DNA from: Escherichia phage LPEK22
Length of the DNA: 64,000 bases
Reading direction: 5' to 3' (one strand)
Sequence record: OK283619.1
The notes beneath the pieces are model-generated. The model saw nothing but the letters and a program-made list of their open reading frames with translations. It had not been told where the DNA came from and searched no databases. A program made the position numbers and the translations under genes. Positions 5,484-57,506 of the stretch are shown here, piece by piece; the stretch's first letter is position 1, and every line of letters starts with the position of its first letter.

Positions 5484-8249
5484 ATGACCAGAAATGTAGA
5501 AGAATTATTCGGCGGCGTAATCACAGCTCCCCACCAGATTCCTTTCACGTATAAATCAAATGTCGGTGGAGAAACTTTCCTTTCTTTGCCGTTCCATCCC
5601 GTCACTGGTGTTATCACAATCAACGGTGGTATGCAAGTTCCGTTAGACAACTTTGAAATCGAAGGAAATACATTGAATCTCGGACGCGCATTGTCCAAAG
5701 GCGATGTTGTGTATTGCTTATTCGATAAAATTCTTTCGCCAGAAGATACAGCCAAAGGTATCCGCATATACAAATTTCAGGCCGTAGGAGGTGAAACCGA
5801 GTTCACTCCTGATTTCACATCTTATGGAGTCCAATCTCTTTATATCGGTGGCGAGTACAAAACCCCCGAAATTGAATATTCCTATGACAGTACGACAGGA
5901 AAAGTATCTTTGCAAACTGCACTGACTGCAGGCGTTTGGGTAGTCGCTGAAATGTCTGTTAAACAACCGAATATCAGTCCGGCGTTTGACCGAAGTATTC
6001 AAGAAATCGCCCGTTCTGCTAATGTAAAAGACTCTGAAGTCATCGTTAGTACGGACACCATATCTTTGTTGGATGGGAAGAAAGTTGTTTATGACATAGC
6101 GGCGCAAACCAGTTATGGTTTACCAACCATTCCTGATGGTTCTGTCATTTCTTCTGTATCTGCTGGGAAATTGAATTACAATCCAGGTGATGTGCAGGTT
6201 GATTTGTTGCCTTTAGAAGATTCATTTATTAATGTGATAAACACTCTGGGGCGAAATGATGGTGCCAAGTATATTGGAGAATGCCATTCTGTTGCTGATC
6301 TCAGGAATACTGAACCCACTATGGATGGACAACGCATTATTCTTAAGCAACACACTGCGGGTACTCTTCTTGGTGGAGGGGTATTCCGTGCGTTAATTGA
6401 TGGTACAGGAAAGACTGATAATAACGGTACTGTGATCAAAACTGTTGGCGGCGCAGCATGGTTACGTGTTAATGCTGATAGAGTTAACCCATTCATGTTT
6501 GGTGCTTTGGGTGGTTCTAATGATGATACTATTCCAGTACAATCTTGTGTGGATAGTGGTAAGGCCACACAATTAACTGGTGTACATTACGTTAGCAATA
6601 TCCAGTTAAAATATAATACGTCGTCTATTTATGGGTCTGGATTACATTACTCAAGGTTGCATCAGTTGCCTTCTGCTACTGGGAATTGTATTACCATAAA
6701 AGATACATGCTCCCTTATTGTATTAGACGCCTTTGGGGTATATGGCACAGGTGCACAACAAGGCACGTCATTTACTGCGGGCACAACAGGTATCTATGTA
6801 GAAACTCCTTCAGGTCTCTCAGCCGATTATCCGTTCCACACTACCGCAGACCCAAGACGGGACTTGTGTATTTCTAAGGTCCATATAGCAGGTTTTGATG
6901 AATATGGGTTAAATATTGATAGTGGTAACTTTAGTGTTACTACAGATTCTCTTTTAGTCAACCACATCAATCAGGTGGGTGTCCGTTGTGCTACTACTGA
7001 TTGGACTTGGACAAATATCCAGGTTAATACCTGCGGTAAACAATGTCTAGTTCTTGATGGTTGTGGTAATGGTCGTATTATTGGCGGTAAATTCATTTGG
7101 GCTAACTGGCAACCTTATGGTACAGTAGGACAGTTCCCAGGCATTACTATTAATAACAGCCAGAATATGGTTATTAATGGTATTGAGGTACAAGATTGTG
7201 GCGGGAATGGTATTGAGATTAGCGAGTCATATTCAATTTCCATGAACGGATTGAACACCAATCGTAACGGCATCAATGCTAACAACACTTTCTACAACAT
7301 CGTATTTAACAAAAGTGATGCAGTTATCAACGGATTCGTAGGACTCAATTATGCCGCGAATAGTGGTTCAGGTGCTAACTCTAGTGCAGGCAATTTTCAG
7401 TTCCTGTCTAATGATTGTAGTGTCACCATTAATGGTGTGGTTGAGACTGGTTATATGGGCATTAACTTTATTGGTGATAACAATATTATCAACCCCACCA
7501 ATTCCGACCTGAGCATTAACGGATTGGTTAATTATTCCAAGACTGGTTTGCAAACCATGAACGAGACCCCTACATTTGATGGTGTTAGCACTACACCTGT
7601 TTATGTAAGTGTCCCATCTTCTGTAGGGCAAGTAAATGGTCTGAGACTATCACAAGCCAACAAAGATAAATTACTGTATTCAAGAACAGCAGGTCCAGAA
7701 GGTATTACCATGGCTGCTGTTGTAGTACCCACCATATCTGGAGCTGAAGTATTTAACTTCATGGCCATTGGTTCAGGGTTTAGTGATACATCCAACAGTC
7801 TTCATCTTCAATTAGTTATAGACGCTTCTGGAAAACAAACAATTGCTTTGCTATTGGGGGGCGATGGTACAACCCAAATTTTATCTGGGGATTTACCTAA
7901 CGACCTTAAACTACAAAGTGGTGTACCATATCATATAGCTATTGGTGCTAAACCTGGATATTTCTGGTGGAGTATTCTTAATATTCAGACGGGTAAGAGA
8001 ATCAGACGGTCATTCCGAGGCGCTTATTTAGCCGTACCATTTAATTCTATATTCGGATTAACTTCTTCATTAACATTCTTCTCGGATAGCAATGCTGGTG
8101 GGGATGCTTGTTCTGGGGTGGGCGCTAAAGTGTATGTTGGTATGTTCTCTTCCGAGAACGATTATGTAGCTTCACGATACTACAATCTGATTAATCCGGT
8201 AGACCCTACTAAGTTAATTAGTTACCGTATATTGGATTCTTCTATTTAA
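5484..8249 (+). CDS. Tailspike protein (about 921 aa) with N-terminal extension and a diverged anchor module
   Basis: ATG at 5484 preferred over the in-frame ATG at 5469, which lies inside the upstream hairpin. Residues about 180-250 (ANVKDSEVIV...VVYDIAAQTSYGLP) are a diverged copy of the module. C-terminal domain fold not verified. Confidence 0.7.
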   Translation: MTRNVEELFGGVITAPHQIPFTYKSNVGGETFLSLPFHPVTGVITINGGMQVPLDNFEIEGNTLNLGRALSKGDVVYCLFDKILSPEDTAKGIRIYKFQAVGGETEFTPDFTSYGVQSLYIGGEYKTPEIEYSYDSTTGKVSLQTALTAGVWVVAEMSVKQPNISPAFDRSIQEIARSANVKDSEVIVSTDTISLLDGKKVVYDIAAQTSYGLPTIPDGSVISSVSAGKLNYNPGDVQVDLLPLEDSFINVINTLGRNDGAKYIGECHSVADLRNTEPTMDGQRIILKQHTAGTLLGGGVFRALIDGTGKTDNNGTVIKTVGGAAWLRVNADRVNPFMFGALGGSNDDTIPVQSCVDSGKATQLTGVHYVSNIQLKYNTSSIYGSGLHYSRLHQLPSATGNCITIKDTCSLIVLDAFGVYGTGAQQGTSFTAGTTGIYVETPSGLSADYPFHTTADPRRDLCISKVHIAGFDEYGLNIDSGNFSVTTDSLLVNHINQVGVRCATTDWTWTNIQVNTCGKQCLVLDGCGNGRIIGGKFIWANWQPYGTVGQFPGITINNSQNMVINGIEVQDCGGNGIEISESYSISMNGLNTNRNGINANNTFYNIVFNKSDAVINGFVGLNYAANSGSGANSSAGNFQFLSNDCSVTINGVVETGYMGINFIGDNNIINPTNSDLSINGLVNYSKTGLQTMNETPTFDGVSTTPVYVSVPSSVGQVNGLRLSQANKDKLLYSRTAGPEGITMAAVVVPTISGAEVFNFMAIGSGFSDTSNSLHLQLVIDASGKQTIALLLGGDGTTQILSGDLPNDLKLQSGVPYHIAIGAKPGYFWWSILNIQTGKRIRRSFRGAYLAVPFNSIFGLTSSLTFFSDSNAGGDACSGVGAKVYVGMFSSENDYVASRYYNLINPVDPTKLISYRILDSSI

Positions 8250-13700: not shown

Positions 13701-15544
13701 CAACCACGACCATGACTGGTGAACAGATTGTGGAGACGCAAGTTATCCCATACATGCGCGAGATCGATATTTCTTTCGACGCATCTGGGCTGCGACCTTT
13801 CACTCGTATGTATGCGTTCTTCTCTGGTCGTGACGTCAATCTGTATTGCAAACCGAATGGTGGTAATTTCGGAGACCCAATCACCACTGATGCCAATGGT
13901 GCTGTTAAAGGTGTATTCCGCGTTCCACAGAACGATACAATCAAGTTCAACACAGGCGACAACGTGTTCCGCTTAACGGATAGCCCTGTTGACAGTAAAT
14001 CTGCGGATGATACACTGACCAATGCAGAAATTGTTCATAAATCTTTCGGTAAGAAACAAGGTATTCAAAAGACCTTTGTCAACACTCGTGTCCTGGGTTA
14101 CACTGCTAGTACTCGCACCGAAACTTCTACTTCTGAAGTGGTTGTTGATCAATGGCGTGATCCGATTGCCCAATCGTTTATGGTGGCGACTAAGATTGGC
14201 GGCGAGTATATCGAAGGCGTGGAAGTATTCTTCTCTACCAAGTCACGTGATGTTCCGATCACTCTGGAAATTCGCGAGATGGAGAATGGCTTACCTTCTC
14301 ATACAGTCATTACTCGTAAAACTTTGAACCCGTCTGAAGTGACGATCTCTACAGACTCTTCCGGCGGTACGAAGTTCACCTTTGATTATCCGGTGTATCT
14401 GCAAGCATCGACTGAGTTTGCTATCGTTTTGTTGGCGAATACTCAGGATTACAACGCGTATATCGCGGAAATGGGCAAGAAAAACCTTCTGTCCAACGAA
14501 TATATCGCCAAACAACCGTATACAGGGGTGTTCTTCACTTCTTCAAACGGTTCTACATGGTCTCCAAACCAAATGGCTGATATGAAATTCCGCATATATC
14601 GTTGTAACTTCGCTGCGGGACAGAACGTTGTAACATTTGATCCGAAGCTCGGGCCAAAACAACGTCCGTTGGGATTGAACACTCTGAACTGCGTAAGCGG
14701 GTCTTCTGTTGTGACTGTGTTTGCAACTGGTCATGGTTTGGTTGCTGGGAACAATGTTACTCTTTCTGAATTGACAGGCGGTTGTGGCTTTACTCCTGAA
14801 CAACTTAACAAAACGTTTACTGTGACAGATGCGAGCTATACTTCATTCAAGATTGACGTCGGTACGGCAGCAGACAGCAATGGACAAATCGGTGGAGATA
14901 ATGCTTCTTTCTTGGGCAATTATCTAGTTGATATGTTCTATGCCAGCGTTACCAATTCGGCTCTGGAAGGTTCAATTCTGAAATTGGAATACCGTTATCG
15001 CGATGCCACTTCAAATTCTATGTCTGATTGGGCTGAGTTTGAAACTGACACTGACGTGGCATTGCCGACTGAAGGTATCTATCGCCAGGTCGGGGATTTC
15101 CAAATCCGAGCCACCATGACGCGTAGTGAAAACAACGTGTACACTGCTCCAATGATTGATGGCGATGACCTGAGCGTAATCTTCAACTCATACGGTGTGG
15201 ATCCATTTGAAGATGTCTTCAAATACGTGACAAAGGACATCGGATTTGATAATCCGTGTTCTACTGTGAAGTTGTTCTTTGGTGCAATGCTCCCATCTCA
15301 GTCTTCGATGAAGGTGCAGGTGAAACTTCTACGAGCAGGGCAAGAGATGGATAGTGTGGCTTGGGAAGACGTCACCCCAACTTCGCCTCTGGTTAACGAC
15401 GGTTCCACATTCTTTGAATATGAGTATGACAAGACTGTGGCGAGCAATAACCCGTTTGTTGGCCTGAAAGTCCGAGCGCTTGTACGGGGGAACCGCGTTG
15501 CTCCTCCATCATTCAAAGACTTCCGTCTTATTGCTCTGGCATAA
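10706..15544 (+). CDS. Very large virion-associated structural protein (1612 aa), function unassigned
   Basis: Uninterrupted 4.8-kb ORF, ATG with GGAG RBS, late-promoter-like ctaaata and tataaatg upstream. T/S/N/G-rich fiber-like composition. Sits between the tailspikes and the neck genes. Confidence 0.6.
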   Translation: MQSTNLNRRPYWDDWNPGKRFSRILFRPMPIKVQTRELNQMQTILQDQIEKLGNHLFKDGSMVIPGGLTITNAAVSLKFTLAGGTEFTDLEGISELYVLGKDNNAKARVLSLERDLSAPDTMLAILEMTEAGNADGFHVNDNLYFQTYDVNDNFIRIGYGIAAAVTGSIVARMTKGVYFIRGMFLDVDDATLIVDKTSNITSHRIGFKVTETIVTETEDESLYSNAQGTINSKAPGAHRLRIDLVLSRFDYDAVVEDFVELAKVRDGKIQSMVTQSTYNILEDTLAQRTYETNGDYNVSTHQIDIREHLKVNNNGGVFNAADGGDESKFVSVMKPGISYVRGRRIENVGEELVIVDKARDTDVLNNTPVAVATGNYLVTKNSKGVPVISRTVRYKLLNASGVTQATALCISAERNSTEFRLYMRDLVVTGDASTITKVSYEESGITMFSAELESNQFNQSSMIDLIFSLPVFGVKTLAPTGSVDINYTVLRTYKVTLDNSGAGSISAPLGYSFSPEFSLYSAAKSDGSEAQFDISGSLSLTGSPVGSALQISLGSGNANQSINLLALMIRTTATIKTKTITETTETVTFTSQTSRPLANHDGWKLVSVKNDTGADVTSSFVLDGGQRDAGYYKSNLLSSAGAISGTYTVVYQYFAHSSGDFFSADSYTSMDYKDIPNYTSSTSGAVYGLADSLDFRPKITNGTSDTDMVRPNTAVILDTEYYLPRIDAIYLADNGVFGVARGISSNNLASPAIPANAMRLYELLIPPYTPNIDDIQIRTIDNRRYTMRDIGKLETRISNVEYYTSLSQLESSAMTQQVFDPITGNPRFKNGIAADPFKDFRLIDDLSEDWMGSIDTENGRLRPFVQQNVVDMTPVGWNKVMDGMVVCNYTPEISVNQEYATTTINVNPYAVFNWEGFLKINPTTDYWFENYYVAPRIINETINTRGTVQEGSVYGTWRTVSVSDRVWEPHGAGGVWWGYRYRTTVSARDVTTYTYTDKTTTTMTGEQIVETQVIPYMREIDISFDASGLRPFTRMYAFFSGRDVNLYCKPNGGNFGDPITTDANGAVKGVFRVPQNDTIKFNTGDNVFRLTDSPVDSKSADDTLTNAEIVHKSFGKKQGIQKTFVNTRVLGYTASTRTETSTSEVVVDQWRDPIAQSFMVATKIGGEYIEGVEVFFSTKSRDVPITLEIREMENGLPSHTVITRKTLNPSEVTISTDSSGGTKFTFDYPVYLQASTEFAIVLLANTQDYNAYIAEMGKKNLLSNEYIAKQPYTGVFFTSSNGSTWSPNQMADMKFRIYRCNFAAGQNVVTFDPKLGPKQRPLGLNTLNCVSGSSVVTVFATGHGLVAGNNVTLSELTGGCGFTPEQLNKTFTVTDASYTSFKIDVGTAADSNGQIGGDNASFLGNYLVDMFYASVTNSALEGSILKLEYRYRDATSNSMSDWAEFETDTDVALPTEGIYRQVGDFQIRATMTRSENNVYTAPMIDGDDLSVIFNSYGVDPFEDVFKYVTKDIGFDNPCSTVKLFFGAMLPSQSSMKVQVKLLRAGQEMDSVAWEDVTPTSPLVNDGSTFFEYEYDKTVASNNPFVGLKVRALVRGNRVAPPSFKDFRLIALA

Positions 15545-15596
15545 ATAATGTTGAAAGGTGGGCGTAAAGCCCACCAAACCAATAGAGGATAAAGAT

Positions 15597-48858: not shown

Positions 48859-49029
48859 ATGACCAAACCATTTTTGCGTTCAGGAGTTGACTCTCTTGAC
48901 TCACAGTTTAAACCCAGCGAAGTTTTAATCCAACAGATTGAAACTAATCGCGAATTCATAGAACACATGCTGGCGAAGCCGGAAGGTGAAGCCGTCCATA
49001 CCACTAAAGAAGGTAATAACGATGATTGA
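48859..49029 (+). CDS. Possible small ORF (56 aa)
   Basis: ATG with RBS aaggga. Overlaps the start of the vWA gene. Under 60 aa, so absent from the track. Confidence 0.2.
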   Translation: MTKPFLRSGVDSLDSQFKPSEVLIQQIETNREFIEHMLAKPEGEAVHTTKEGNNDD

Positions 49030-51238
49030 ATCATTAACATTTAAGAATGCGGTTGCGACCGTCGCGCCGTCTAACCATGTAATCGTTGTGGATATCTCCG
49101 GTTCCATGTATCGTTCACTTCCAGAAGTCCGTAAGCATCTGAAGGAGAACCTGCCTTCCCTGGTGAAACCGGAAGATACTGTGAGCATCCTTTACTTTTC
49201 ATCTCGCGGTGATTTCGGAACGGTATTTGCCGGACGTCAGATTAACAGTGCAACTGACCTCAGTGAGATCAATAATCTAATTGACCGTTTCCTGAAGCCT
49301 TCTGGTTGTACTGGTTTTGTTGAGCCGCTGAAACTGGCTGCGGAAACTGCCATTAGCCTGAATAAACCTGGTTATGTTAACAACCTGGCATTCATGACCG
49401 ACGGGTATGACAACTGCTGGCGTTCTAATGAAATCCTGGATGCCGCTGAAGTACTGCCCAAAGCGTTTGATAACATTACCTTCATCGAATACGGTTGGTA
49501 TTGTAATCGCGAACTGCTGGGGCTAATGGCAGAACGTTCTGGTGCGACCCACGTATTCGCCGAAGGACAGAATGAATATCAGACCGAATTGGAAAACGTG
49601 CTGAAAACTTCTTCACCGAAAGTTGTAGTCGATGTTCCTCTGGTTTATACCCATGCCATTTATGTTGAAAATGGCGTGGCGACTGTTTTAGCTGTGCATC
49701 CTGATGAAGAGCACCCTATTGGCCACGTCAGCATCCCTGAAAGCGTTTCTCAGCTGTGGGTTGTAAACCCCAACATGATCGACCAGCTGGATAATCTGGC
49801 AGACATCCAAGCGGCATACGTGCTGGCATTTTACGGCGTGTATACCATGGACGCCGATCTGGTCTGGGCCGCGCTGAAGAAGACGGGTGACGTCCGCTTC
49901 ATCAAACAGTACAGCAACTGTTTCACCAAGCAGGACTATTCCAACATCAAAGTCGATCTGACTCAGGCTATCGTAGACGAATCTCTGCGAGGAGTTGATG
50001 GCATCGATTATAATATGGTTCCGGCTGAAGACGCCACCACCATTGTTGATGTTCTGACGTATCTGGCTGAAGCAGATGTCTCTATCGTCACCAAGCATCC
50101 ACTATTCTCTTACAAGAGCATTGGGCGCGGTACTGTACAGAAAGTTGATGACACCGAAGACAAGTTGGCCGAAGAGATTGCGAATGCGACTTCTAAAGAA
50201 GAGCGTAAAGCCCTGGCGCTCAAACTGGCCGAGCACGAAGATTGGACCCCCGAATTCAATCCGGTTGATGATAAAGGGATTGTCCCGATCAGCAATTTGG
50301 TCTACAATTCAGAACGTCCTAACATCAGTGTGCAGACAGTTCAACACGGAACGGTTGTTGTGCCTGAGTTTGTACAGAAGAAATATGAACTTCCTGAAGA
50401 GCTGGGGACCTGGCGTTATCGCAATTACACCATTGTCAAGGATGGTATCATCAACCTGAAAACAATGCCTATCACTGCAGATTCTCCGATTGTTCGGGCT
50501 AAGGTGGCACAGGATTTGACTGCCATGGGTGTTCATGTGTTTGGTGGACCGGAAGTCTTCATTGTAAATCTGGAAAGTGTCCCAATGGTTAACCGCGCCA
50601 TGACAAAGAATATCAGTGCTGCTGAATTCTTTGCAGACAATGTGCGCCGTGAAGCATTGAAGGCAAAACAGAAAGTTCTGAAATTCTACCGTGATGAACT
50701 GGTTGGTAAAGGCAACGCTACTGGTCTGGCTTCAAAATATGGCAAAGAAGCAGCTGATTTCCTGTCAGCAAACGGAATTCGCGACTATGGATTTTCACCG
50801 AAGACTTCTTCTGTAGAATCAACCGATGTCTATATGAGTCGTGAATTGAATGTGAAAATCAAAGGCGCATCTTCACTGCCGAGCATCGCGTCTGTTATCA
50901 AAAAACAGACGGACGGTAAAAAACTGAATGTCGCTGATCAGCTGATCGCTAATGCCCTGGCTGAATACAATGCATTTGTTAAATCGCCGATGATCACCAG
51001 CGTACCGGAAGAGACTCAGAAAAAGCTGATTGAAAGCTGGATCGGAGACGCAGCAAAAGCGGCCATTAACGAAGTCCGCGCCCTGAACAAAACGCTGTCC
51101 AAGGTAGTTTATGGGATTGTTGCAGGCCATGGTTGGTTTACCGACCTGGATTTGGAAGAATCCACTATGGATGTGGAAGTTGATGGGGTGAAATACACCG
51201 TCACTGCCGAACTGGCTGAAAAAGAAGTCAAAATCTAA
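49022..51238 (+). CDS. von Willebrand factor A (vWA) domain protein with MIDAS motif (738 aa)
   Basis: ATG at 49022 with RBS aaagaaggt (track start is GTG). N-terminal VVDISGSM...FMTDG fits the MIDAS pattern (DxSxS...T...D). Long C-terminal region unassigned. Confidence 0.7.
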   Translation: MIESLTFKNAVATVAPSNHVIVVDISGSMYRSLPEVRKHLKENLPSLVKPEDTVSILYFSSRGDFGTVFAGRQINSATDLSEINNLIDRFLKPSGCTGFVEPLKLAAETAISLNKPGYVNNLAFMTDGYDNCWRSNEILDAAEVLPKAFDNITFIEYGWYCNRELLGLMAERSGATHVFAEGQNEYQTELENVLKTSSPKVVVDVPLVYTHAIYVENGVATVLAVHPDEEHPIGHVSIPESVSQLWVVNPNMIDQLDNLADIQAAYVLAFYGVYTMDADLVWAALKKTGDVRFIKQYSNCFTKQDYSNIKVDLTQAIVDESLRGVDGIDYNMVPAEDATTIVDVLTYLAEADVSIVTKHPLFSYKSIGRGTVQKVDDTEDKLAEEIANATSKEERKALALKLAEHEDWTPEFNPVDDKGIVPISNLVYNSERPNISVQTVQHGTVVVPEFVQKKYELPEELGTWRYRNYTIVKDGIINLKTMPITADSPIVRAKVAQDLTAMGVHVFGGPEVFIVNLESVPMVNRAMTKNISAAEFFADNVRREALKAKQKVLKFYRDELVGKGNATGLASKYGKEAADFLSANGIRDYGFSPKTSSVESTDVYMSRELNVKIKGASSLPSIASVIKKQTDGKKLNVADQLIANALAEYNAFVKSPMITSVPEETQKKLIESWIGDAAKAAINEVRALNKTLSKVVYGIVAGHGWFTDLDLEESTMDVEVDGVKYTVTAELAEKEVKI

Positions 51239-51275: not shown

Positions 51276-51593
51276 ATGCTTATGTCAAACAAACCAACTT
51301 ATGTTGAAGTAATGCGTGTTCTGGCTCAGTACGCTTGTGACAACCTGAACATGGAAACCTGGCGCAACGGGGATCACAAGGACAAGTTTGATAACATTGA
51401 TGATAATATCGATGCTTTAGCGCCGTTACGGGTTAAGAATGATCTCGGCGGTGACGATCTTGACATGATTGAGCTGGTCATGGAAATCGAAGAAGAGTAC
51501 GATGTAGAAATTAGTGACGAGTGGGTGGGTAAACATGGAGATGATCCTACCCTCGGAGAGTTAGCTGAACTCGTCGTTGTTCTCTGCAAATAA
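51276..51593 (+). CDS. Acyl-carrier-protein-like protein lacking the phosphopantetheine-site Ser (Ser to Asp)
   Basis: DLGGDDLDMIELVMEIEEEYDVEISDE aligns with the ACP helix II region ([20 protein letters not shown]..EIPDE). The position of the conserved Ser is Asp. Confidence 0.6.
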   Translation: MLMSNKPTYVEVMRVLAQYACDNLNMETWRNGDHKDKFDNIDDNIDALAPLRVKNDLGGDDLDMIELVMEIEEEYDVEISDEWVGKHGDDPTLGELAELVVVLCK

Positions 51594-52807: not shown

Positions 52808-53257
52808 ATGTTCCTTACATCCTTTATTGACTGGATGAATATCATAAATGGCCTGAGGATTCCTGTTGGGAACCTCGGGCTTTCTCGTTCTTCTATGCCG
52901 CAAATCGATGCCGACAAACAAGAAGATTTTCACAAATATCTTGAAGACAACGGCGTGTCCATAGATGCTGCGCAAGTGCCCATCAAAATGCTTCGTCTTA
53001 CCCAGAACGAAATCAATAAAATGAAGGTCTGGAAGATTATGAAGCAGATCAGAAATAAGAAGCCCATGGGTCGAGTTTGGGTGTCTTCTGACAATTACGT
53101 TGTTGACGGGTCTCACCGATTTGTCGCTGCGTTGAACATGGACGGCAAACAGCGCATGAAGGTCTACAAAGTTGATTTGCCAGCGATGGAATTTGTTAAA
53201 CTCGCTAAACAGTTTCAGGGTGTGCGATACAGAACGGTCAGCGATACCCGTTTCTGA
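52808..53257 (+). CDS. ParB/Srx-like nuclease-domain protein (149 aa), tentative
   Basis: VVDGSHRFVAA resembles the DGxHR core of the ParB N-terminal domain. RBS gaggtg. Confidence 0.45.
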   Translation: MFLTSFIDWMNIINGLRIPVGNLGLSRSSMPQIDADKQEDFHKYLEDNGVSIDAAQVPIKMLRLTQNEINKMKVWKIMKQIRNKKPMGRVWVSSDNYVVDGSHRFVAALNMDGKQRMKVYKVDLPAMEFVKLAKQFQGVRYRTVSDTRF

Positions 53258-53336: not shown

Positions 53337-54026
53337 ATGAAACGTTTAATCATCGGGGTTGTGCTGGCTGGTCTGGCACTTCCTGCCACCGCCAAGCTGA
53401 ACTCCACAGGTGAAAAACTGTGGTCTGATCTTTCCTACTGTGCTGGGTTCTCCCAAGCCGTCGCTATAGACAAAACTGGTTCCATAGAGAACTTTGCTGA
53501 ACTCTGGACCACAGGTAATGTCACAGATGCCGTTGTAAATGCTGGTATTGAGTTTAATCGATATAAGCAAGGCGCGTTCAACCTGAAAGGATATATGAAC
53601 GACAAAGAATTTAACCGAGGAGGCATGGAGGCTGGCGATCTTATTATGACTGGTCGTATGGGTACACAAGGACGAATGACCGTAAGACAGTGCCGTTCTC
53701 TTCCTTCTCCAGCATTACAAAAAGGTGTGCAGGTTGGCCGACGTCAGCTGGATCTCATCAATGATGGCAACCAATGCATCAAGGTGTTTGAATATAGTGC
53801 CGACCAAGAATCAGATCGACGTTTGAAAAAGGAATGGCGGACTCGCGCCCTTGGCCTGAGAGCATGGCTGGTGGAAAATGATCATTATTATGAAGACCGT
53901 GTTCAGAATGGTTTGAAAGATCTTTCCACTAATTTGTCTGTCAATCTTGATGATCCAAGGCTTTCCCGTGAACTCAAGCAAACAAGAATTGACTGTGATA
54001 ATATGATGAAGGAGAACGAAAGATGA
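53337..54026 (+). CDS. Secreted / periplasmic protein with signal peptide (229 aa)
   Basis: ATG at 53337 after RBS aaggaga. N-terminus MKRLIIGVVLAGLALPATA is signal-peptide-like. Confidence 0.5.
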   Translation: MKRLIIGVVLAGLALPATAKLNSTGEKLWSDLSYCAGFSQAVAIDKTGSIENFAELWTTGNVTDAVVNAGIEFNRYKQGAFNLKGYMNDKEFNRGGMEAGDLIMTGRMGTQGRMTVRQCRSLPSPALQKGVQVGRRQLDLINDGNQCIKVFEYSADQESDRRLKKEWRTRALGLRAWLVENDHYYEDRVQNGLKDLSTNLSVNLDDPRLSRELKQTRIDCDNMMKENER

Positions 54027-54343
54027 AAATCAAAATCTTATTGTTATTCCTGTGCACTTTCATGTCTTCCCAAGTATTGGCAGCTCCGGCCAGTAAGTTG
54101 AATATTTGTGCTGCTTGGTTGTCTACATATCAACAATTCCATCCGGATGATAAGGATACATCAATTCTTTTATCTGATTATGAAGGTGAATTGAAACGCC
54201 TTGATCTCTATAGTGTGGACCAGATAGAGAATGCGCTTGATTTATCTATGATGGAATCTGCCGCAGACAACAGCAAACAGACTATTAAAGATCTGACGAT
54301 GTGTCGTGAAATTGCAACTAATTTCGTTGGAAATCAAAGATAG
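54023..54343 (+). CDS. Small secreted protein with signal peptide (106 aa)
   Basis: MKIKILLLFLCTFMSSQVLAAP signal-peptide-like. RBS gaaggag. Confidence 0.45.
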   Translation: MKIKILLLFLCTFMSSQVLAAPASKLNICAAWLSTYQQFHPDDKDTSILLSDYEGELKRLDLYSVDQIENALDLSMMESAADNSKQTIKDLTMCREIATNFVGNQR

Positions 54344-54392
54344 TTTCAGGTTAAAATTTTATTCCCCATTGAACTGAAAGGTGTATTTCGTG

Positions 54393-55184
54393 ATGATCAT
54401 TACCAAAAAGATCGCTGAGGCGATCGTTGAAAAGAATAAAATGTTCGCACCTAACAAAGCAAAGGTTATTCTGATCCATGATGATGGTCGCGTGGTCTTC
54501 GCTGAAAAATTTGAGCAAGGGTGCGCTTTCTGGTTTGCAGACACGATGCGTGAAAGCAAGCTACAGGGCATCATTTACAAATTAACTCTGGTTGCCAAGC
54601 GCAACGACCAGGGTGACTGGGTTACGGTTTGTGATTTCAGCTCCAAGGTTGATACTCGACCAAAATCTCGCCAAGAGAGAATTCTGGAAGCTCAGGAAAA
54701 ACTTGTTGCTGCTCGTACTTCACCAGTCATTAAGCCAGCAGTCATCTCCCCTTCTATTGATCTGCCGCCTGTCAGCCAAAAGGCTGTTGAGCAATATGCA
54801 GAAAAACGAAAAGAAGAACCCGTGAAGTCTCCGGTTGAGAATAAAGAAGAATCTGAATTTATTTCAATCAGGCAGTTATGTCCGCAAGAAAGGCGATTTT
54901 CTTCACCAAATGATTTATTCGTGTCTTTCCGGTCTAATGGGAAGATTATATTGTGCAAAACCCTACGGGAACAATTGCAGTGGCCTAACATCAATATGAT
55001 GGTGAGTCGGAACTTCAAACGATTCGCAATCGGTGAAGGTAAAGATTATCCTGTTAATAAGAGCGGAACATATGCAAATCGTCATATGTGCGACAAATTG
55101 TCTTTCCCAAACGATTCTGGCACTATTCGTGTTCGTTTAGAATGGGATGAAAGTTTGAACATGTATGTCGGTGATATAAAATAA
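54393..55184 (+). CDS. Hypothetical protein (263 aa)
   Basis: ATG at 54393 (track start is GTG). Followed by a terminator at 55207-55238. Confidence 0.5.
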   Translation: MIITKKIAEAIVEKNKMFAPNKAKVILIHDDGRVVFAEKFEQGCAFWFADTMRESKLQGIIYKLTLVAKRNDQGDWVTVCDFSSKVDTRPKSRQERILEAQEKLVAARTSPVIKPAVISPSIDLPPVSQKAVEQYAEKRKEEPVKSPVENKEESEFISIRQLCPQERRFSSPNDLFVSFRSNGKIILCKTLREQLQWPNINMMVSRNFKRFAIGEGKDYPVNKSGTYANRHMCDKLSFPNDSGTIRVRLEWDESLNMYVGDIK

Positions 55185-55206
55185 TTCAATAACATTAGGG
55201 CGGTTA

Positions 55207-55238
55207 TTATTAAACCGCCTTTTATTTGAGAGATCTAT
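55207..55238 (+). terminator. Rho-independent terminator
   Basis: ggcggtt/aaccgcc stem plus ttttatttg. Confidence 0.7.
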
Positions 55239-55241
55239 ATT

Positions 55242-55910
55242 ATGAACAACAAGAGCCGTATTATCATCGGGGCTGACCAGGGTAATTTATATTTTGAAAG
55301 ATCTGATGTTGTCGCCCACGCTATCCTTCCCACTGGAATTTCCGTTTATTGTGTGGAACATCCTGACCCTGCAGTTAAACGTCTTTGCTATGTCTCCCGT
55401 GAAAATGGACTAATTGTATTGCCAGAAGGCGCGATTATGCGCGCTCGTTTTTGGCCGATCGATTTTAATTCCATGAGCAATAGGGAGATCGACGCCCGTT
55501 TCTTCGTACATAATATGAACCGGACTCTGAAAAATGAAACTCAGAGAGTTGTTCATTTCGACAATGAAACTCATGGAGTGACGTTAGAATTCAGAACTCG
55601 TGGTGAAGCTCTTCAGGTGAAGAAATCAAGCTGGAAAACTGAAGGGACGTTCACATATGATTATGCGTTAATCGACAAATTGTGTAATCAGTTTCGCATT
55701 AGCCTGACTGCCAACGACGATTTAGGTCAGTATGTTGTATGGACAGCCCGTTCACCACATATGAACGGTATCATGATGGAGAGTGAAACTCGTAATCGCG
55801 CTGTGCTCCAACTGCTGCTGTTAGACGCGTATTCTCGCAACCCGTTGGAATATCTGTCTCGGGAACAGATTGATAACGCGCTTTCTCATTGTAACCGTCT
55901 GGAGGTGTAA
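55242..55910 (+). CDS. Hypothetical protein (222 aa)
   Basis: ATG start. Confidence 0.5.
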   Translation: MNNKSRIIIGADQGNLYFERSDVVAHAILPTGISVYCVEHPDPAVKRLCYVSRENGLIVLPEGAIMRARFWPIDFNSMSNREIDARFFVHNMNRTLKNETQRVVHFDNETHGVTLEFRTRGEALQVKKSSWKTEGTFTYDYALIDKLCNQFRISLTANDDLGQYVVWTARSPHMNGIMMESETRNRAVLQLLLLDAYSRNPLEYLSREQIDNALSHCNRLEV

Positions 55911-55911
55911 T

Positions 55912-56199
55912 ATGTCCGGCGTATGGTGTGATGTATTGTTGGTAAGATTTTCAAACGGGATGGATAATCAGATCATTTCATTCTTTTATCCTGTTCCCTT
56001 TTCTTCTATGGGTCTGACTGTCAAGCGCGTTCTTGACATAGAAGAAAAACTCAACACGATGCCGTATATGGCGCGACCACACGTGCTGGGTTGTGAACTG
56101 TTAAACGAAATGATGATTGACGAGAATCTTGTTGAAACAATTATCACGCGTGAACAGATGAAAACCATACTGTCTCAGGGAGAACCCCATGTCGAATAA
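55912..56199 (+). CDS. Hypothetical protein (95 aa)
   Basis: ATG at 55912 after RBS ggaggtg. Confidence 0.4.
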   Translation: MSGVWCDVLLVRFSNGMDNQIISFFYPVPFSSMGLTVKRVLDIEEKLNTMPYMARPHVLGCELLNEMMIDENLVETIITREQMKTILSQGEPHVE

Positions 56200-56509
56200 A
56201 CCGTTTGAACTTAAATTTCGCGTTTGGCATATTCCCCAGGTTCCTGGGATCGCTTTTCATGTTGAGGTTCCAACATTTGAAGAAGCGCAGCGCCTGAAGA
56301 ATACTCTGGCTGATTACGACCTGTTTCAGTATAACAATAACATCAAGCCGGATTATTGTAATGCTTCCGGCGTTCAAATATACCAACATGATCTGACTGA
56401 AGAAGATCTAAATGATATGGGTCTGGATGATCGTTGGGTTGATATCGAAGATATTGACGAACTCAACGATTATTTTGATCATCTGCGTAGCACAGGGTGG
56501 GAAATATGA
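56189..56509 (+). CDS. Hypothetical acidic protein (106 aa)
   Basis: ATG start. ATGA overlap with the downstream gene. Confidence 0.45.
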   Translation: MSNKPFELKFRVWHIPQVPGIAFHVEVPTFEEAQRLKNTLADYDLFQYNNNIKPDYCNASGVQIYQHDLTEEDLNDMGLDDRWVDIEDIDELNDYFDHLRSTGWEI

Positions 56510-56715
56510 TCGGGTTAATCCGTTATCTGTTCATATTCGTAATTTCAACATTCATTTTATTTTTCTTTTTCAAATACTTGAAAGAGACTAAAATCTACCG
56601 AAGTAAACGTTGGCGTAAACGGGTGAGGGTAACTTTCCTGCTGCTGATTTCTTCGGTTACAATAACCGCACTCACATTGGGTGCATATATCTACATTTTT
56701 GAAGGGGTACATTGA
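56506..56715 (+). CDS. Small membrane protein with two predicted TM helices (69 aa)
   Basis: ATG at 56506. Hydrophobic stretches flank a basic loop (RSKRWRKRVR). Confidence 0.4.
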   Translation: MIGLIRYLFIFVISTFILFFFFKYLKETKIYRSKRWRKRVRVTFLLLISSVTITALTLGAYIYIFEGVH

Positions 56716-57506
56716 TGTTCAAGAAATTGGTGTTTGGTGCAATTATGGTTCTGGCTGCAAGTCTACTTTCTGGTTGTGGTGGCGTTATCGATGAAGGTAA
56801 TGTCGGCGTTCGCACCCAATGGGGTGAAGTAGACATGAACCCTGTAACAGCGGGGATCTACACCAGCTTTGTTTCAAGCGTGGATGTTTACACGACCAAA
56901 GAAGCCGTTGTGAGTCTGACGAAAATGACGCCAAAGGCCAAAGACAACCTGACCTTGGAAGATCTGGATGTGGACGTTTATTACACACCGAACGTCGCGA
57001 AGGTTCCTTGGTTCCATACCAAATTTGCAGGTCAGAGCGCTGAACTCGGTGACGGCACGATAGCGGTGGGATTCAACCTGGTTAAAACCGCCGCAGCATC
57101 CTCAACGATGGACGCCGTTTCCTCTTTGGATTCTATGACAATTCACACCCAACGGGCTGAGTTAGAAAAGATGATCAAGGAACGCACCCAGCAGCAATTG
57201 GAAACTGCTGCGCCTGGCATGTTCACAATCACACGTGTGTTGGTGAAAAAGGCGCTGACAGATCCTTCGATTGAGCAATCTATCCGTGATAATGTCATGG
57301 CCGACAAACGTTTGGATACAGCAAGAAAGAACGTTGAAATTCGAGACCAAGAAGCCAGGGCGAATCAGAAACTGACGACATCTCTGACACCTGAATATTT
57401 ACAACACGAATATAACATGGTGTTGCAATCTTGCGCCAACAGCGGGAAATGTACTCTGATTGTTGATGGTTCAGGCTCAAGTAAAATGCTAAACGTCGGC
57501 AAATAA
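56715..57506 (+). CDS. Lipoprotein, possibly SPFH/band-7-like (263 aa)
   Basis: Signal peptide plus lipobox (AASLLSGCGG). RBS gaagggg. The SPFH resemblance (NVGVRTQWGEV...) is by eye only. Confidence 0.5.
   Translation: MFKKLVFGAIMVLAASLLSGCGGVIDEGNVGVRTQWGEVDMNPVTAGIYTSFVSSVDVYTTKEAVVSLTKMTPKAKDNLTLEDLDVDVYYTPNVAKVPWFHTKFAGQSAELGDGTIAVGFNLVKTAAASSTMDAVSSLDSMTIHTQRAELEKMIKERTQQQLETAAPGMFTITRVLVKKALTDPSIEQSIRDNVMADKRLDTARKNVEIRDQEARANQKLTTSLTPEYLQHEYNMVLQSCANSGKCTLIVDGSGSSKMLNVGK

What the first reader, a model, noticed from the sequence alone, without database searches (positions are those of the whole stretch)
53337..57506. Cluster of exported and membrane proteins including a lipoprotein
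Within about 4 kb there are two signal-peptide proteins (53337, 54023), a two-TM small protein (56506), and a lipobox lipoprotein (56715, LLSGCGG) with a possible SPFH/band-7-like body, interleaved with soluble unknowns. A co-directional envelope-targeted gene set inside the replication region is a candidate superinfection-exclusion or envelope-remodelling module.
Basis: inference. Interest (0 to 1): 0.5.

Follow-up and report, generated by a model that had tools for sequence, protein, structure and literature searches.

The report
Phage SPFH lipoprotein with membrane partner
This stretch of a Salmonella Kuttervirus phage genome holds two separate pairs of envelope-targeted genes, and one pair (a tiny two-helix membrane protein plus a lipid-anchored SPFH "membrane-cage" protein) recurs in many unrelated phages, though its function has never been tested.

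Summary
The window is a Kuttervirus (Ackermannviridae), 99.6% identical to Salmonella phage BSP101. At the stated coordinates lie two Sec-signal proteins (g1, g2), a 69-aa two-TM protein (g7) and a lipobox lipoprotein (g8) whose body is a full-length SPFH/band-7 protomer (Pfam 1.3e-12; AlphaFold pLDDT 87; Foldseek to prohibitin, erlin, HflK/C, stomatin and QmcA at about 1e-12).

It is not one module.
- **g1-g2** is a core pair of this phage family. Both are exported, cysteine-bearing periplasmic proteins. Public records call them i-/o-spanins, but the window copy lacks the o-spanin lipobox, and both genes keep conserved signal-peptidase I sites.
- **g3-g6** are cytoplasmic. g6 is a P22 gp17 homologue, which counteracts exclusion rather than causing it.
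- **g7-g8** is an accessory cassette. In every lipobox-bearing phage locus examined, a 55-92 aa two-TM gene sits upstream of the SPFH lipoprotein. It is often unannotated. Bacterial cousins lack it.

Most likely g7-g8 builds an HflK/C-like, periplasm-facing ring on the inner membrane. The biological role (exclusion, membrane protection, FtsH modulation) is untested. Some Kuttervirus isolates have deleted the cassette, so it is dispensable in culture.

The parts
53337..54026 (+). g1: exported 229-aa periplasmic protein, an Ackermannviridae core gene. Publicly annotated 'i-spanin' or hypothetical.
   Evidence: Signal peptide with a conserved A-x-A|K site and 4 invariant Cys. 83-100% identical across Kuttervirus, Limestonevirus, Taipeivirus and other Ackermannviridae hits. 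Only 9 cluster representatives among 1.84 billion. PHROG 4260, unknown function. The AlphaFold model failed with pLDDT 38.
54023..54343 (+). g2: exported 106-aa periplasmic protein that overlaps g1 by ATGA. Publicly annotated 'Rz-like spanin', 'o-spanin' or 'lipoprotein'.
   Evidence: The window copy has no lipobox, and only 7 of 37 family representatives have one. Pairwise identity is 38% in the signal region and 79% in the mature part. Position -1 is Ala in 36 of 37. PHROG 3843.
54393..55184 (+). g3: soluble 263-aa protein of unknown function, last gene of the g1-g3 unit.
   Evidence: No hydrophobic segment. PHROG 3828, unknown function. No PDB relative. Present in Limestonevirus, Taipeivirus and phage Bue1.
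55197..55221 (+). Terminator-like hairpin followed by a T-run, separating g1-g3 from g4-g8.
   Evidence: 9-bp stem with 5 G-C pairs, followed by TTTTATTT. This is a consensus match only and is not tested.
55242..55910 (+). g4: soluble 222-aa protein of unknown function.
   Evidence: PHROG 5426. No PDB relative. Absent from Limestonevirus PP35.
55912..56199 (+). g5: DUF7425 protein, 95 aa, soluble.
   Evidence: Pfam PF24200, E 1.4e-51.
56189..56509 (+). g6: P22 gp17-like protein, 106 aa, acidic (pI 4.3), cytoplasmic.
   Evidence: Pfam PF17420, E 1e-49. PHROG 1510. No hydrophobic segment. PMC9409062 describes gp17 as counteracting a prophage's exclusion.
56506..56715 (+). g7: 69-aa two-TM hairpin protein, the partner of the SPFH lipoprotein. 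Its stop codon overlaps the g8 start (TGATG).
   Evidence: TM segments 1-27 and 40-65, with a basic loop KYLKETKIYRSKRWRKRVR. An equivalent 55-92 aa two-TM gene lies upstream of every lipobox-type phage SPFH gene examined. A profile built from 23 non-Kuttervirus partners ranks this frame first of 691 window frames, E 0.019.
56715..57506 (+). g8: SPFH/band-7 lipoprotein, 263 aa.
   Evidence: Pfam Band_7, E 1.3e-12. AlphaFold pLDDT 86.9. Foldseek matches prohibitin, erlin, HflK/C, stomatin and QmcA at E 5e-13 to 7e-9 over about 245 columns.
56766..56777 (+). g8 lipobox L-S-G-C (Cys21, Gly at +2).
   Evidence: Cys is conserved in 31 of 37 aligned relatives. In the model the first beta-strand starts at residue 21, so there is no tether.
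57432..57452 (+). g8 C-terminal Cys-x5-Cys pair (C240, C246).
   Evidence: Present in 26 of 37 aligned relatives, all of them lipobox-type sequences. Absent in 0 of 80 bacterial cousins. This fits a periplasmic disulfide (inference).

Best explanation
The stretch holds two unrelated envelope-directed gene pairs plus four cytoplasmic genes. All lie in the replication-gene region of a Kuttervirus genome.

Pair A (g1-g2) is a family-core pair whose reading frames overlap (ATGA). Both products are Sec-exported, signal-peptidase-I-cleaved, probably disulfide-bonded soluble periplasmic proteins. Their function is unknown, and they are probably not spanins.

Pair B (g7-g8) is an accessory cassette. 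g8 is exported, lipidated at Cys21, and is a complete SPFH protomer: SPFH domain, long 'wall' helix and C-terminal segment. g7 is a two-helix hairpin in the inner membrane, with a cytoplasmic loop and both ends in the periplasm.

The most likely mechanism is inferred, not shown. g8 oligomerises into a ring or cage like HflK/C, prohibitin or QmcA. It sits on the periplasmic face of the inner membrane and is held there by its lipid anchor and by g7. g7 would play the part that the NfeD membrane partner plays in bacterial SPFH-NfeD operons. The cage would fence off a patch of host inner membrane during infection.

What that patch does is not known. Candidates are membrane stabilisation, blocking of incoming phage DNA, or client sequestration.
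For: Shown:
- SPFH family membership by sequence and by full-length fold including the long helix 184-223.
- Lipobox conserved in the family.
- The two-TM gene lies upstream of all 26 distinct non-Kuttervirus lipobox loci from IMG/VR and metagenomes. In 25 the gap is -4 to +28 nt. In one (L033) a roughly 200-nt insert intervenes.
- A small hydrophobic gene also lies directly upstream of the SPFH gene in the 25-27%-identical proteins of Acinetobacter phage phiAB441 and cyanophage S-CREM1.
- Background control: only 51 of 1191 mechanical ORFs of 45-100 aa in those loci have two TM segments, and about 20 of the 51 are the partners themselves.
- 80 bacterial cousins (33-43% identity) lack the partner and lack the CX5C pair. 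The exception is one phage-like 113-kb contig.
- The only phage locus without a partner (L039) is TM-anchored and has no lipobox.
- The g7 stop overlaps the g8 start.

Inferred:
- Periplasmic location, from the signal peptide, the lipobox and the CX5C pair.
- Inner-membrane placement. A helical hairpin can only sit in the inner membrane, and it exposes only a few residues to the periplasm, so contact must be at that membrane. In addition, the SPFH fold begins directly at the lipidated Cys. Lipoproteins stripped of their disordered N-terminal linker are partly retained in the inner membrane (bioRxiv 10.1101/2021.01.05.425367).
- Ring assembly, by analogy with every solved full-length SPFH protein.
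Against: - Gly at +2 predicts Lol export to the outer membrane under the enterobacterial '+2 rule'. If that happens, g8 and g7 end up in different membranes.
- No direct evidence of a g7-g8 interaction or of oligomerisation. No multimer modelling was available.
- Sequence homology among the partners is weak (E 0.019). The family is defined mainly by architecture and position.
- Bacterial cousins with a possible [TS]SC lipobox have no partner, so the partner is not simply a substitute for a missing TM anchor.
- Sequence and profile searches of the PDB found nothing. The SPFH assignment rests on Pfam and on the fold.
- No functional data exist. Some Kuttervirus isolates have lost the cassette.
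Confidence: 0.55

Rival explanations
1. g7-g8 is a superinfection-exclusion system. A membrane complex made during infection would block DNA entry or cell-wall penetration by later phages, as T4 Imm/Sp or T5 Llp do.
For: - Envelope location.
- Position among replication genes, with no late-promoter motif TATAAATA nearby.
- Accessory, patchy distribution and a variable slot, which is typical of phage-phage conflict genes.
- g7 resembles T4 Imm in size (Imm is 83 aa; PMC9409062) and in being a small membrane protein.
Against: - g7 matches only PHROG families of unknown function (11680, and 23919 weakly), none of them an immunity or exclusion family. There are no PADLOC hits.
- The neighbouring 'superinfection exclusion' label belongs to g6, a cytoplasmic gp17 homologue with the opposite role.
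- No experiment exists.
- The same pair occurs in phages of very different hosts, including cyanobacteria, Acinetobacter and Burkholderia-like hosts. That argues for a generic membrane function rather than a receptor-specific block.
Confidence: 0.2
2. g1 and g2 are the phage's two-component spanin, as in public annotations and in Kongari et al. 2018. The cluster would then be part of the lysis machinery.
For: - Gene order and overlap resemble the 'separated' spanin architecture.
- The phage Marshall orthologues are listed as i-/o-spanin in PMC6139136.
- 7 of 37 g2 representatives carry a LIAGC-type lipobox.
- No other spanin candidate is annotated in the family.
Against: - The window's g2 has no lipobox.
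- Even the lipobox variants keep the downstream A-x-A|AP cleavage site.
- g1 keeps an A-x-A site after a hydrophobic stretch of only about 16 residues.
- g1 is 83-100% identical across genera. From general knowledge, spanins are usually far more divergent than that.
- The endolysin lies about 19 kb away.
Confidence: 0.12
3. g8 acts alone at the inner face of the outer membrane, following the +2 rule. It could stabilise or remodel the outer membrane, or be shed in vesicles. g7 would be an unrelated small membrane protein or a transient assembly factor.
For: - Gly at +2, and mostly non-Asp at +2 across the family.
- A prophage-encoded HflK/C-like protein of Pasteurella multocida (PM0222) is reported to be secreted in outer-membrane vesicles (PMC9872710).
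Against: - The strict g7-g8 linkage, kept while g8 identity to the window copy falls to about 35%, is hard to explain if the two never meet.
- There is no disordered tether after the lipidated Cys, a feature that favours inner-membrane retention.
Confidence: 0.15
4. g8 imitates host HflK/C and captures or displaces FtsH. This would change turnover of host or phage membrane proteins (HflK/C-FtsH controls lambda CII).
For: - Same periplasm-facing topology as HflK/C.
- HflK/C-FtsH structures are among the top fold matches.
- Phage-encoded HflC has been speculated on before (PMC10269572).
Against: - Only about 15% identity to HflK/C.
- Prohibitin, erlin and stomatin match equally well.
- NCBIfam HflC scores 12 bits against a cut-off of 134.
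- No sequence feature points to FtsH.
Confidence: 0.08
5. g7 is the missing Kuttervirus holin (small, two TM segments) and g8 regulates its triggering.
For: - No holin is annotated in the stretches of the BSP101 record that were inspected, and no TM protein lies beside the endolysin.
- g7 has the size and TM count of class II holins.
Against: - The basic loop and acidic or short C-terminus give an N-out/C-out topology with no charged cytoplasmic tail.
- No endolysin was annotated or flagged next to the pair in the loci whose gene content was inspected.
- Isolates with g7-g8 deleted (phages kage, STP55, GG32) are viable lytic phages.
Confidence: 0.05

Closest known systems
Bacterial SPFH-NfeD operons (e.g. 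E. coli QmcA-YbbJ, PDB 8z5g; YqiK-YqiJ; S. aureus FloA-NfeD)
   Same: - A small integral-membrane partner gene sits immediately upstream of, and is co-translated with, an SPFH gene.
- The SPFH protomer has the same fold and the same wall helix.
- The QmcA-YbbJ complex forms a cage of 26 heterodimers (PMC13086221).
   Different: - The partner is only 55-92 aa, a bare two-TM hairpin with no OB-fold NfeD domain and no Pfam hit.
- The SPFH protein is lipid-anchored rather than TM-anchored.
- It faces the periplasm, whereas QmcA protrudes into the cytoplasm.
- It is phage-encoded.
- It carries a CX5C pair that the bacterial cousins lack.
HflK/HflC (E. coli; PDB 7vhq, 7wi3, 9cz2)
   Same: Periplasm-facing SPFH assembly on the inner membrane, with a full-length fold match.
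   Different: - About 15% identity.
- A single gene rather than an HflK and HflC pair.
- A lipid anchor rather than an N-terminal TM helix.
- No evidence of FtsH association.
- NCBIfam HflC model not met.
Other virus-encoded SPFH/band-7 proteins (T4-like phages 44RR, Aeh1 and RB43; N4-like phage GIB1; cyanophages; giant viruses)
   Same: - The SPFH fold is widespread in phages and giant viruses (PMC1524935; PMC13239085).
- None of them has a known function.
   Different: The lipoprotein clade studied here is defined by three features together: the lipobox, the CX5C pair and the upstream two-TM partner.
Two-component spanins (lambda Rz/Rz1 and the 'separated' class)
   Same: g1-g2 share the gene order, the overlap and an envelope destination. 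The Marshall orthologues are listed as spanins.
   Different: - g1 has a cleavable signal peptide instead of a signal anchor.
- No coiled coil.
- The window's g2 has no lipobox.
- The pair is unusually conserved.
- It is far from the endolysin.
Phage superinfection-exclusion membrane proteins (T4 Imm and Sp, T5 Llp, P22 SieA)
   Same: Small membrane or lipoprotein products made by the infecting phage or prophage.
   Different: No sequence relationship. Llp is a 77-aa receptor-blocking lipoprotein, not an SPFH scaffold.

Membership tests
SPFH / Band 7 superfamily (g8) | Sequence match to the SPFH domain model above the curated threshold | tested here: met
   Pfam PF01145 scores 48.6 bits against a cut-off of 23.6, E 1.3e-12. 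All 48 closest homologues (P0001-P0048) carry PF01145.
SPFH / Band 7 superfamily (g8) | SPFH alpha/beta fold followed by a long coiled-coil 'wall' helix | tested here: met
   AlphaFold pLDDT 86.9, strands 21-92 and 170-182, helix 184-223. Foldseek matches 8rrh, 9vvj, 9cz2, 9oh9 and 8z5g at E 5e-13 to 7e-9 over 230-260 columns.
SPFH / Band 7 superfamily (g8) | N-terminal membrane attachment directly before the SPFH domain | tested here: met
   The attachment is a lipobox Cys21 rather than a TM helix. The first strand starts at residue 21.
SPFH / Band 7 superfamily (g8) | Assembly into a large homo- or hetero-oligomeric ring or cage | not testable with these tools
   Only monomer prediction was available. 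This needs native PAGE, cryo-EM or multimer modelling.
Bacterial lipoprotein (g8) | Signal peptide ending in a lipobox [LVI][ASTVI][GAS]C | tested here: met
   MFKKLVFGAIMVLAASLLSGC. Conserved in 31 of 37 aligned relatives.
Bacterial lipoprotein (g8) | Actual lipidation and signal-peptidase II cleavage | not testable with these tools
   Needs globomycin sensitivity or palmitate labelling.
SPFH-NfeD operon (g7-g8) | Membrane-partner gene adjacent to and co-oriented with the SPFH gene | tested here: met
   Seen in 26 of 26 non-Kuttervirus lipobox loci, plus Kuttervirus, phiAB441 and S-CREM1.
SPFH-NfeD operon (g7-g8) | The partner carries the NfeD OB-fold domain (PF01957) | tested here: not met
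   g7 is 69 aa and consists of two TM helices. It has no Pfam, NCBIfam or annotated PHROG match.
Two-component spanin (g1-g2) | o-spanin: outer-membrane lipoprotein with a lipobox | tested here: not met
   The window's g2 has no lipobox. 30 of 37 family representatives lack one. An A-x-A|AP site is conserved in all.
Two-component spanin (g1-g2) | i-spanin: uncleaved N-terminal TM anchor | tested here: inconclusive
   A hydrophobic stretch of about 16 residues is followed by a conserved A-x-A|K. This favours cleavage, but no predictor or experiment was available.
Two-component spanin (g1-g2) | i-spanin: predominantly coiled-coil helical periplasmic domain | tested here: not met
   Kongari et al.'s own tables give 0 coiled-coil segments and 35% helix for the Marshall orthologue. 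My AlphaFold model was too poor to add anything.
Two-component spanin (g1-g2) | Linkage to the lysis cassette | tested here: not met
   The endolysin is about 19 kb downstream in BSP101. T4-like phages also scatter their lysis genes, so this test is weak.
P22 gp17 family (g6) | Match to PF17420 | tested here: met
   167 bits against a cut-off of 25, and PHROG 1510.
Known anti-phage defence or exclusion proteins (all ten genes) | Match to a PADLOC model or to a PHROG immunity or exclusion family | tested here: not met
   No PADLOC hit at E <= 0.1 for any of the ten proteins. g7 matches only PHROG families 11680 and 23919, both of unknown function.
Class II holin (g7) | Small protein with two TM segments | tested here: met
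   69 aa with two TM segments.
Class II holin (g7) | Charged cytoplasmic C-terminal tail, linkage to an endolysin, essential for lysis | tested here: not met
   The C-terminus is a short FEGVH and the basic charge sits in the loop. No endolysin is adjacent in the loci whose gene content was inspected. The gene is deleted in viable isolates.

The most novel reading that the evidence does not exclude
A phage-specific module builds an SPFH cage on the periplasmic face of the host inner membrane. The module is a lipid-anchored SPFH protein with a CX5C pair plus a minimal two-helix membrane partner. Phages as different as Ackermannviridae, T4-like phages, roughly 110-kb phages of Burkholderia-like hosts and Acinetobacter phages would use it. 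Its purpose would be to insulate a membrane patch during infection, for instance against membrane-depolarising abortive-infection effectors or against genome entry by competing phages. That would be a new class of phage host-takeover structure and a minimal, tractable SPFH-partner system.
Probability: 0.15. Interest if true: 0.75.

Novelty: new variant of a known kind. Interest (0 to 1): 0.45.

Why it matters
[quoted passage not shown] Viral copies have been noted in genome papers since 2006 but never studied.

Three results here bear on that.
- One phage clade always pairs a lipid-anchored SPFH protein with a 55-92 aa membrane hairpin. This gives a minimal two-gene system, dispensable in culture, in a well-studied Salmonella and E. 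coli O157 phage genus. It could be used to ask what an SPFH cage does and how a partner is recruited.
- The partner gene is missing from several published annotations, including Erwinia phage Bue1.
- The 'spanin' and 'superinfection exclusion' labels that propagate through Kuttervirus records for g1, g2 and g6 are probably misleading. This matters because these phages are used for biocontrol and therapy.

Tried and rejected
- AlphaFold on g1 with a 21-sequence alignment failed (pLDDT 37.9). The family is too shallow at 75-100% identity, so no fold search was run on it.
- An exhaustive HMMER search with g1 found only 9 cluster representatives, none informative.
- PDB sequence or profile searches returned nothing usable for g8, its family profile, g3, g4, the g1 profile or g6.
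- PADLOC had no hits for any of the ten proteins. NCBIfam gave only sub-threshold noise for g1-g8.
- The T4-type late-promoter motif TATAAATA is not enriched in the window and is absent near the cluster. The sigma-70 scan gave only weak 9-of-12 matches. Expression timing is therefore inferred from gene neighbourhood alone.
- Literature searches for phage SPFH function, anti-defence roles and periplasmic cages found annotation mentions only.
- The contexts of bacterial cousins were checked for functional hints. They are stand-alone genes among housekeeping genes and told me nothing.
- I considered that g7 merely replaces a lost TM anchor. This is rejected as a general rule, because bacterial cousins with a possible lipobox have no partner.
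- I considered that the cluster is one operon-like module. This is rejected on the terminator-like site and on the different phyletic patterns of the two pairs.

Full report
**Identity of the window.** The 5-kb stretch around the finding is 99.6% identical to Salmonella phage BSP101, SFP10 and other Kuttervirus genomes (Ackermannviridae). 160 phage records cover at least 80% of it. The RefSeq annotation of BSP101 places the finding between an acyl carrier protein and the DenV glycosylase upstream, and HU, a DNA helicase, RNase H and the gp55-like late sigma factor downstream.

**The observation.**
- g1, 53337-54026, 229 aa, begins MKRLIIGVVLAGLALPATA|KL.
- g2, 54023-54343, 106 aa, begins MKIKILLLFLCTFMSSQVLA|AP.
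- g7, 56506-56715, 69 aa, has two hydrophobic segments separated by the basic loop KYLKETKIYRSKRWRKRVR.
- g8, 56715-57506, 263 aa, has the lipobox LSGC with Cys21 and Gly at +2.
- g3, g4, g5 and g6 have no hydrophobic segment.

No SignalP-type tool was available, so I used conservation as the test.
- In 21 g1 relatives, positions -3 and -1 are Ala in 20 and 21 sequences, while -2 varies among A, S, T, P and H.
- In 37 g2 relatives, -1 is Ala in 36 and -3 is always small or Val. The signal region is 38% identical pairwise, against 79% for the mature part.
- That pattern is what selection on a signal-peptidase I site produces.

**g8 is a true SPFH protein.**
- Pfam Band_7 scores 48.6 bits against a cut-off of 23.6.
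- Sequence and profile searches of the PDB found nothing, so the family is divergent.
- An AlphaFold model built on 37 diverse relatives reached pLDDT 86.9. It shows an alpha/beta domain from residue 21 to 182, a 40-residue helix (184-223) and a second helix.
- Foldseek aligned 230-260 columns to prohibitin, erlin, HflK/C, stomatin and QmcA at E 5e-13 to 7e-9, with about 15% identity.
- The match covers the whole protomer, including the wall helix that builds the cage in every solved SPFH assembly.
- The first strand begins at the lipidated cysteine itself, so there is no tether.

[quoted passage not shown] It appears for phage Sajous1 gp200, which was seen with 3 retrievals in a virion proteome (PMC10892097). 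SPFH genes have been listed in T4-like phages since 2006 (PMC1524935). No function has been reported.

**The new point: g7 and g8 are a conserved pair.**
- The g8 family has 58 cluster representatives. The closest ones, about 47, carry a lipobox.
- A scan of IMG/VR with the family alignment gave 33 loci. Metagenome look-ups added more.
- In every distinct non-Kuttervirus locus with a lipobox-type gene (26 of 26), a 55-71 aa ORF lies upstream on the same strand. It has two hydrophobic segments, a basic connecting loop and usually an acidic or His residue after the second segment (VDHIF, ERL, EGVH).
- In 25 of these loci the gap is -4 to +28 nt. In L033 a roughly 200-nt insert intervenes.
- The ORF is not annotated in Erwinia phage Bue1 and was not called in two metagenome contigs.
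- A small hydrophobic gene also lies directly upstream of the SPFH gene in two more distant phage proteins (25-27% identity). Acinetobacter phage phiAB441 has a 92-aa two-TM gene ahead of a lipobox-type SPFH gene. Cyanophage S-CREM1 has a 53-aa hydrophobic ORF ahead of a TM-anchored one.
- As a control, only 51 of 1191 mechanical ORFs of 45-100 aa in those loci have two such segments, and about 20 of the 51 are the partners themselves.
- The one phage locus with no partner (L039) has a TM-anchored SPFH protein and no lipobox.
- 80 bacterial relatives (33-43% identity; Steroidobacteraceae, Methyloversatilis, Rhizobacter and others) are mostly TM-anchored and sit among housekeeping genes. They lack the partner. 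The exception is one 113-kb phage-like contig.
- The phage lipoprotein clade also carries a C-terminal Cys-x5-Cys pair: 26 of 37 aligned sequences, against 0 of 80 bacterial cousins.
- Sequence similarity among partners is weak. A profile of 23 non-Kuttervirus partners ranks the g7 frame first of 691 window frames, but only at E 0.019.

**Most likely mechanism (inference).**
- A helical hairpin can only reside in the inner membrane. Its basic loop should face the cytoplasm, which leaves only a few residues of each end in the periplasm.
- g8 is exported and lipid-anchored, with its SPFH domain flush against a membrane.
- If the two proteins meet, as strict linkage and the TGATG stop-start overlap suggest, they must meet on the periplasmic face of the inner membrane. 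That is the HflK/C topology.
- Gly at +2 would normally send a lipoprotein to the outer membrane. However, removing the disordered N-terminal linker re-routes lipoproteins to the inner membrane (bioRxiv 10.1101/2021.01.05.425367), and g8 has no linker. Its location remains the main uncertainty.
- By analogy with all solved full-length SPFH proteins, g8 should form a ring or cage.
- g7 would be its integral-membrane partner, as NfeD is for QmcA (PDB 8z5g; PMC13086221). g7 has no OB-fold, so it is not an NfeD protein.

**g7-g8 is an accessory cassette.**
- Within Ackermannviridae, g8 is found in Kuttervirus and in Erwinia phages of the genus Nezavisimistyvirus. It is not found in the Dickeya, Klebsiella, Shigella, Serratia or Enterobacter phages that do carry g1.
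- Limestonevirus PP35 lacks g4, g6, g7 and g8. Taipeivirus May has g1-g6 and then a LysM-domain protein in place of g7-g8.
- Kuttervirus isolates kage, STP55 and GG32 match only the last 66 residues of g8. In kage, the one inspected, there is a LysM gene after g6 and an in-frame deletion that fuses g7 residues 1-17 to g8 residues 198-263.
- The cassette is therefore dispensable for lytic growth and sits in a variable slot. That is typical of host-interaction or conflict genes but does not say which kind.

**g1 and g2.**
- They are core genes. g1 is 83-100% identical across genera and has almost no relatives elsewhere.
- Many records call them i-spanin and o-spanin or 'Rz-like spanin'.
- The source appears to be the phage Marshall entry in Kongari et al. 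2018. [quoted passage not shown]
- Marshall's g2 has a LIAGC lipobox. Only 7 of 37 family representatives do, and the window copy does not. Even the lipobox variants keep the downstream A-x-A|AP site.
- The defining o-spanin feature is therefore not met here.
- I read the pair as soluble periplasmic proteins of unknown function, probably disulfide-bonded (4 invariant Cys in g1, 2 conserved in g2).
- I could not get a usable structure.

**g6 and the 'superinfection exclusion' label.** g6 matches Pfam PF17420 (P22 gp17) at 1e-49. It is acidic and has no hydrophobic segment. gp17 is described as the protein P22 needs to overcome exclusion by a Fels-2 prophage (PMC9409062). The label is therefore misleading as evidence for an exclusion module. 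No gene in the cluster matches PADLOC, and g7 matches only PHROG families of unknown function.

**Transcription units.** A terminator-like hairpin with a T-run lies at 55197-55221, between g3 and g4. g4 to g8 abut or overlap one another. I therefore read two units, g1-g3 and g4-g8. This rests on a consensus match only.

**Verdict.** The single-module and exclusion interpretation is only partly supported. The SPFH lipoprotein itself is already known from annotation. What is new is its obligatory two-TM partner, the phage-clade signature (lipobox, CX5C pair and partner together), and the weak basis of the spanin labels. Function remains open.

Noticed in passing
L003 (Erwinia phage vB_EamM-Bue1, NC_048702.1) 5804-5998; also L006 5831-6004 and L007 2544-2717: The two-TM partner gene directly upstream of the SPFH lipoprotein is not annotated in the RefSeq record of Bue1. 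It was also not called in two metagenome contigs. In those contigs the pair sits immediately after an rIIB gene.
   Followed up: yes
L129 (Salmonella phage kage, MT074476.1) 2145-2701; also STP55 and GG32: These Kuttervirus isolates match only the last 66 residues of g8. In kage, the one inspected, a LysM-domain gene follows g6, and an in-frame deletion fuses the first 17 residues of g7 to the last 66 residues of g8. The slot is variable and the cassette is dispensable. This probably explains the stray 'LysM' and 'endolysin' labels near g7 in several records.
   Followed up: partly
window 56189-56509 (g6): g6 is a P22 gp17 homologue that Kuttervirus records label 'superinfection exclusion'. 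The literature describes gp17 as overcoming a prophage's exclusion, so the label suggests the wrong direction of action.
   Followed up: partly
L124 (BSP101) 14195-15560, outside the window: The endolysin lies about 19 kb downstream of g8. None of the small ORFs in front of it has a transmembrane segment. No holin is annotated in the inspected stretches of this Kuttervirus record.
   Followed up: partly
window 48986-51238 and 51276-51593: A 750-aa protein annotated as a von Willebrand factor A domain protein in related phages, followed by a phage acyl carrier protein. Both lie just upstream of the cluster. Their role in a lytic phage is unclear.
   Followed up: no
window 52808-53257: A 149-aa basic protein just upstream of g1 gives a weak PHROG match to ParB-like nuclease proteins (E 0.0016). 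One record annotates it as 'structural protein'.
   Followed up: no
one search hit list: Records named 'Pseudomonas phage Pa-sanjiao' and an 'Enterococcus' phage match this Salmonella Kuttervirus stretch, Pa-sanjiao at 99.6% identity. The host labels in those records look doubtful.
   Followed up: no
L004 (Burkholderia gladioli assembly, 111-kb contig) and L042 (Massilia sp., 113-kb contig): Contigs of about 110 kb in bacterial assemblies carry the phage-type pair among phage-like genes. They are probably phage genomes, or plasmid-like prophages, deposited within bacterial assemblies.
   Followed up: no
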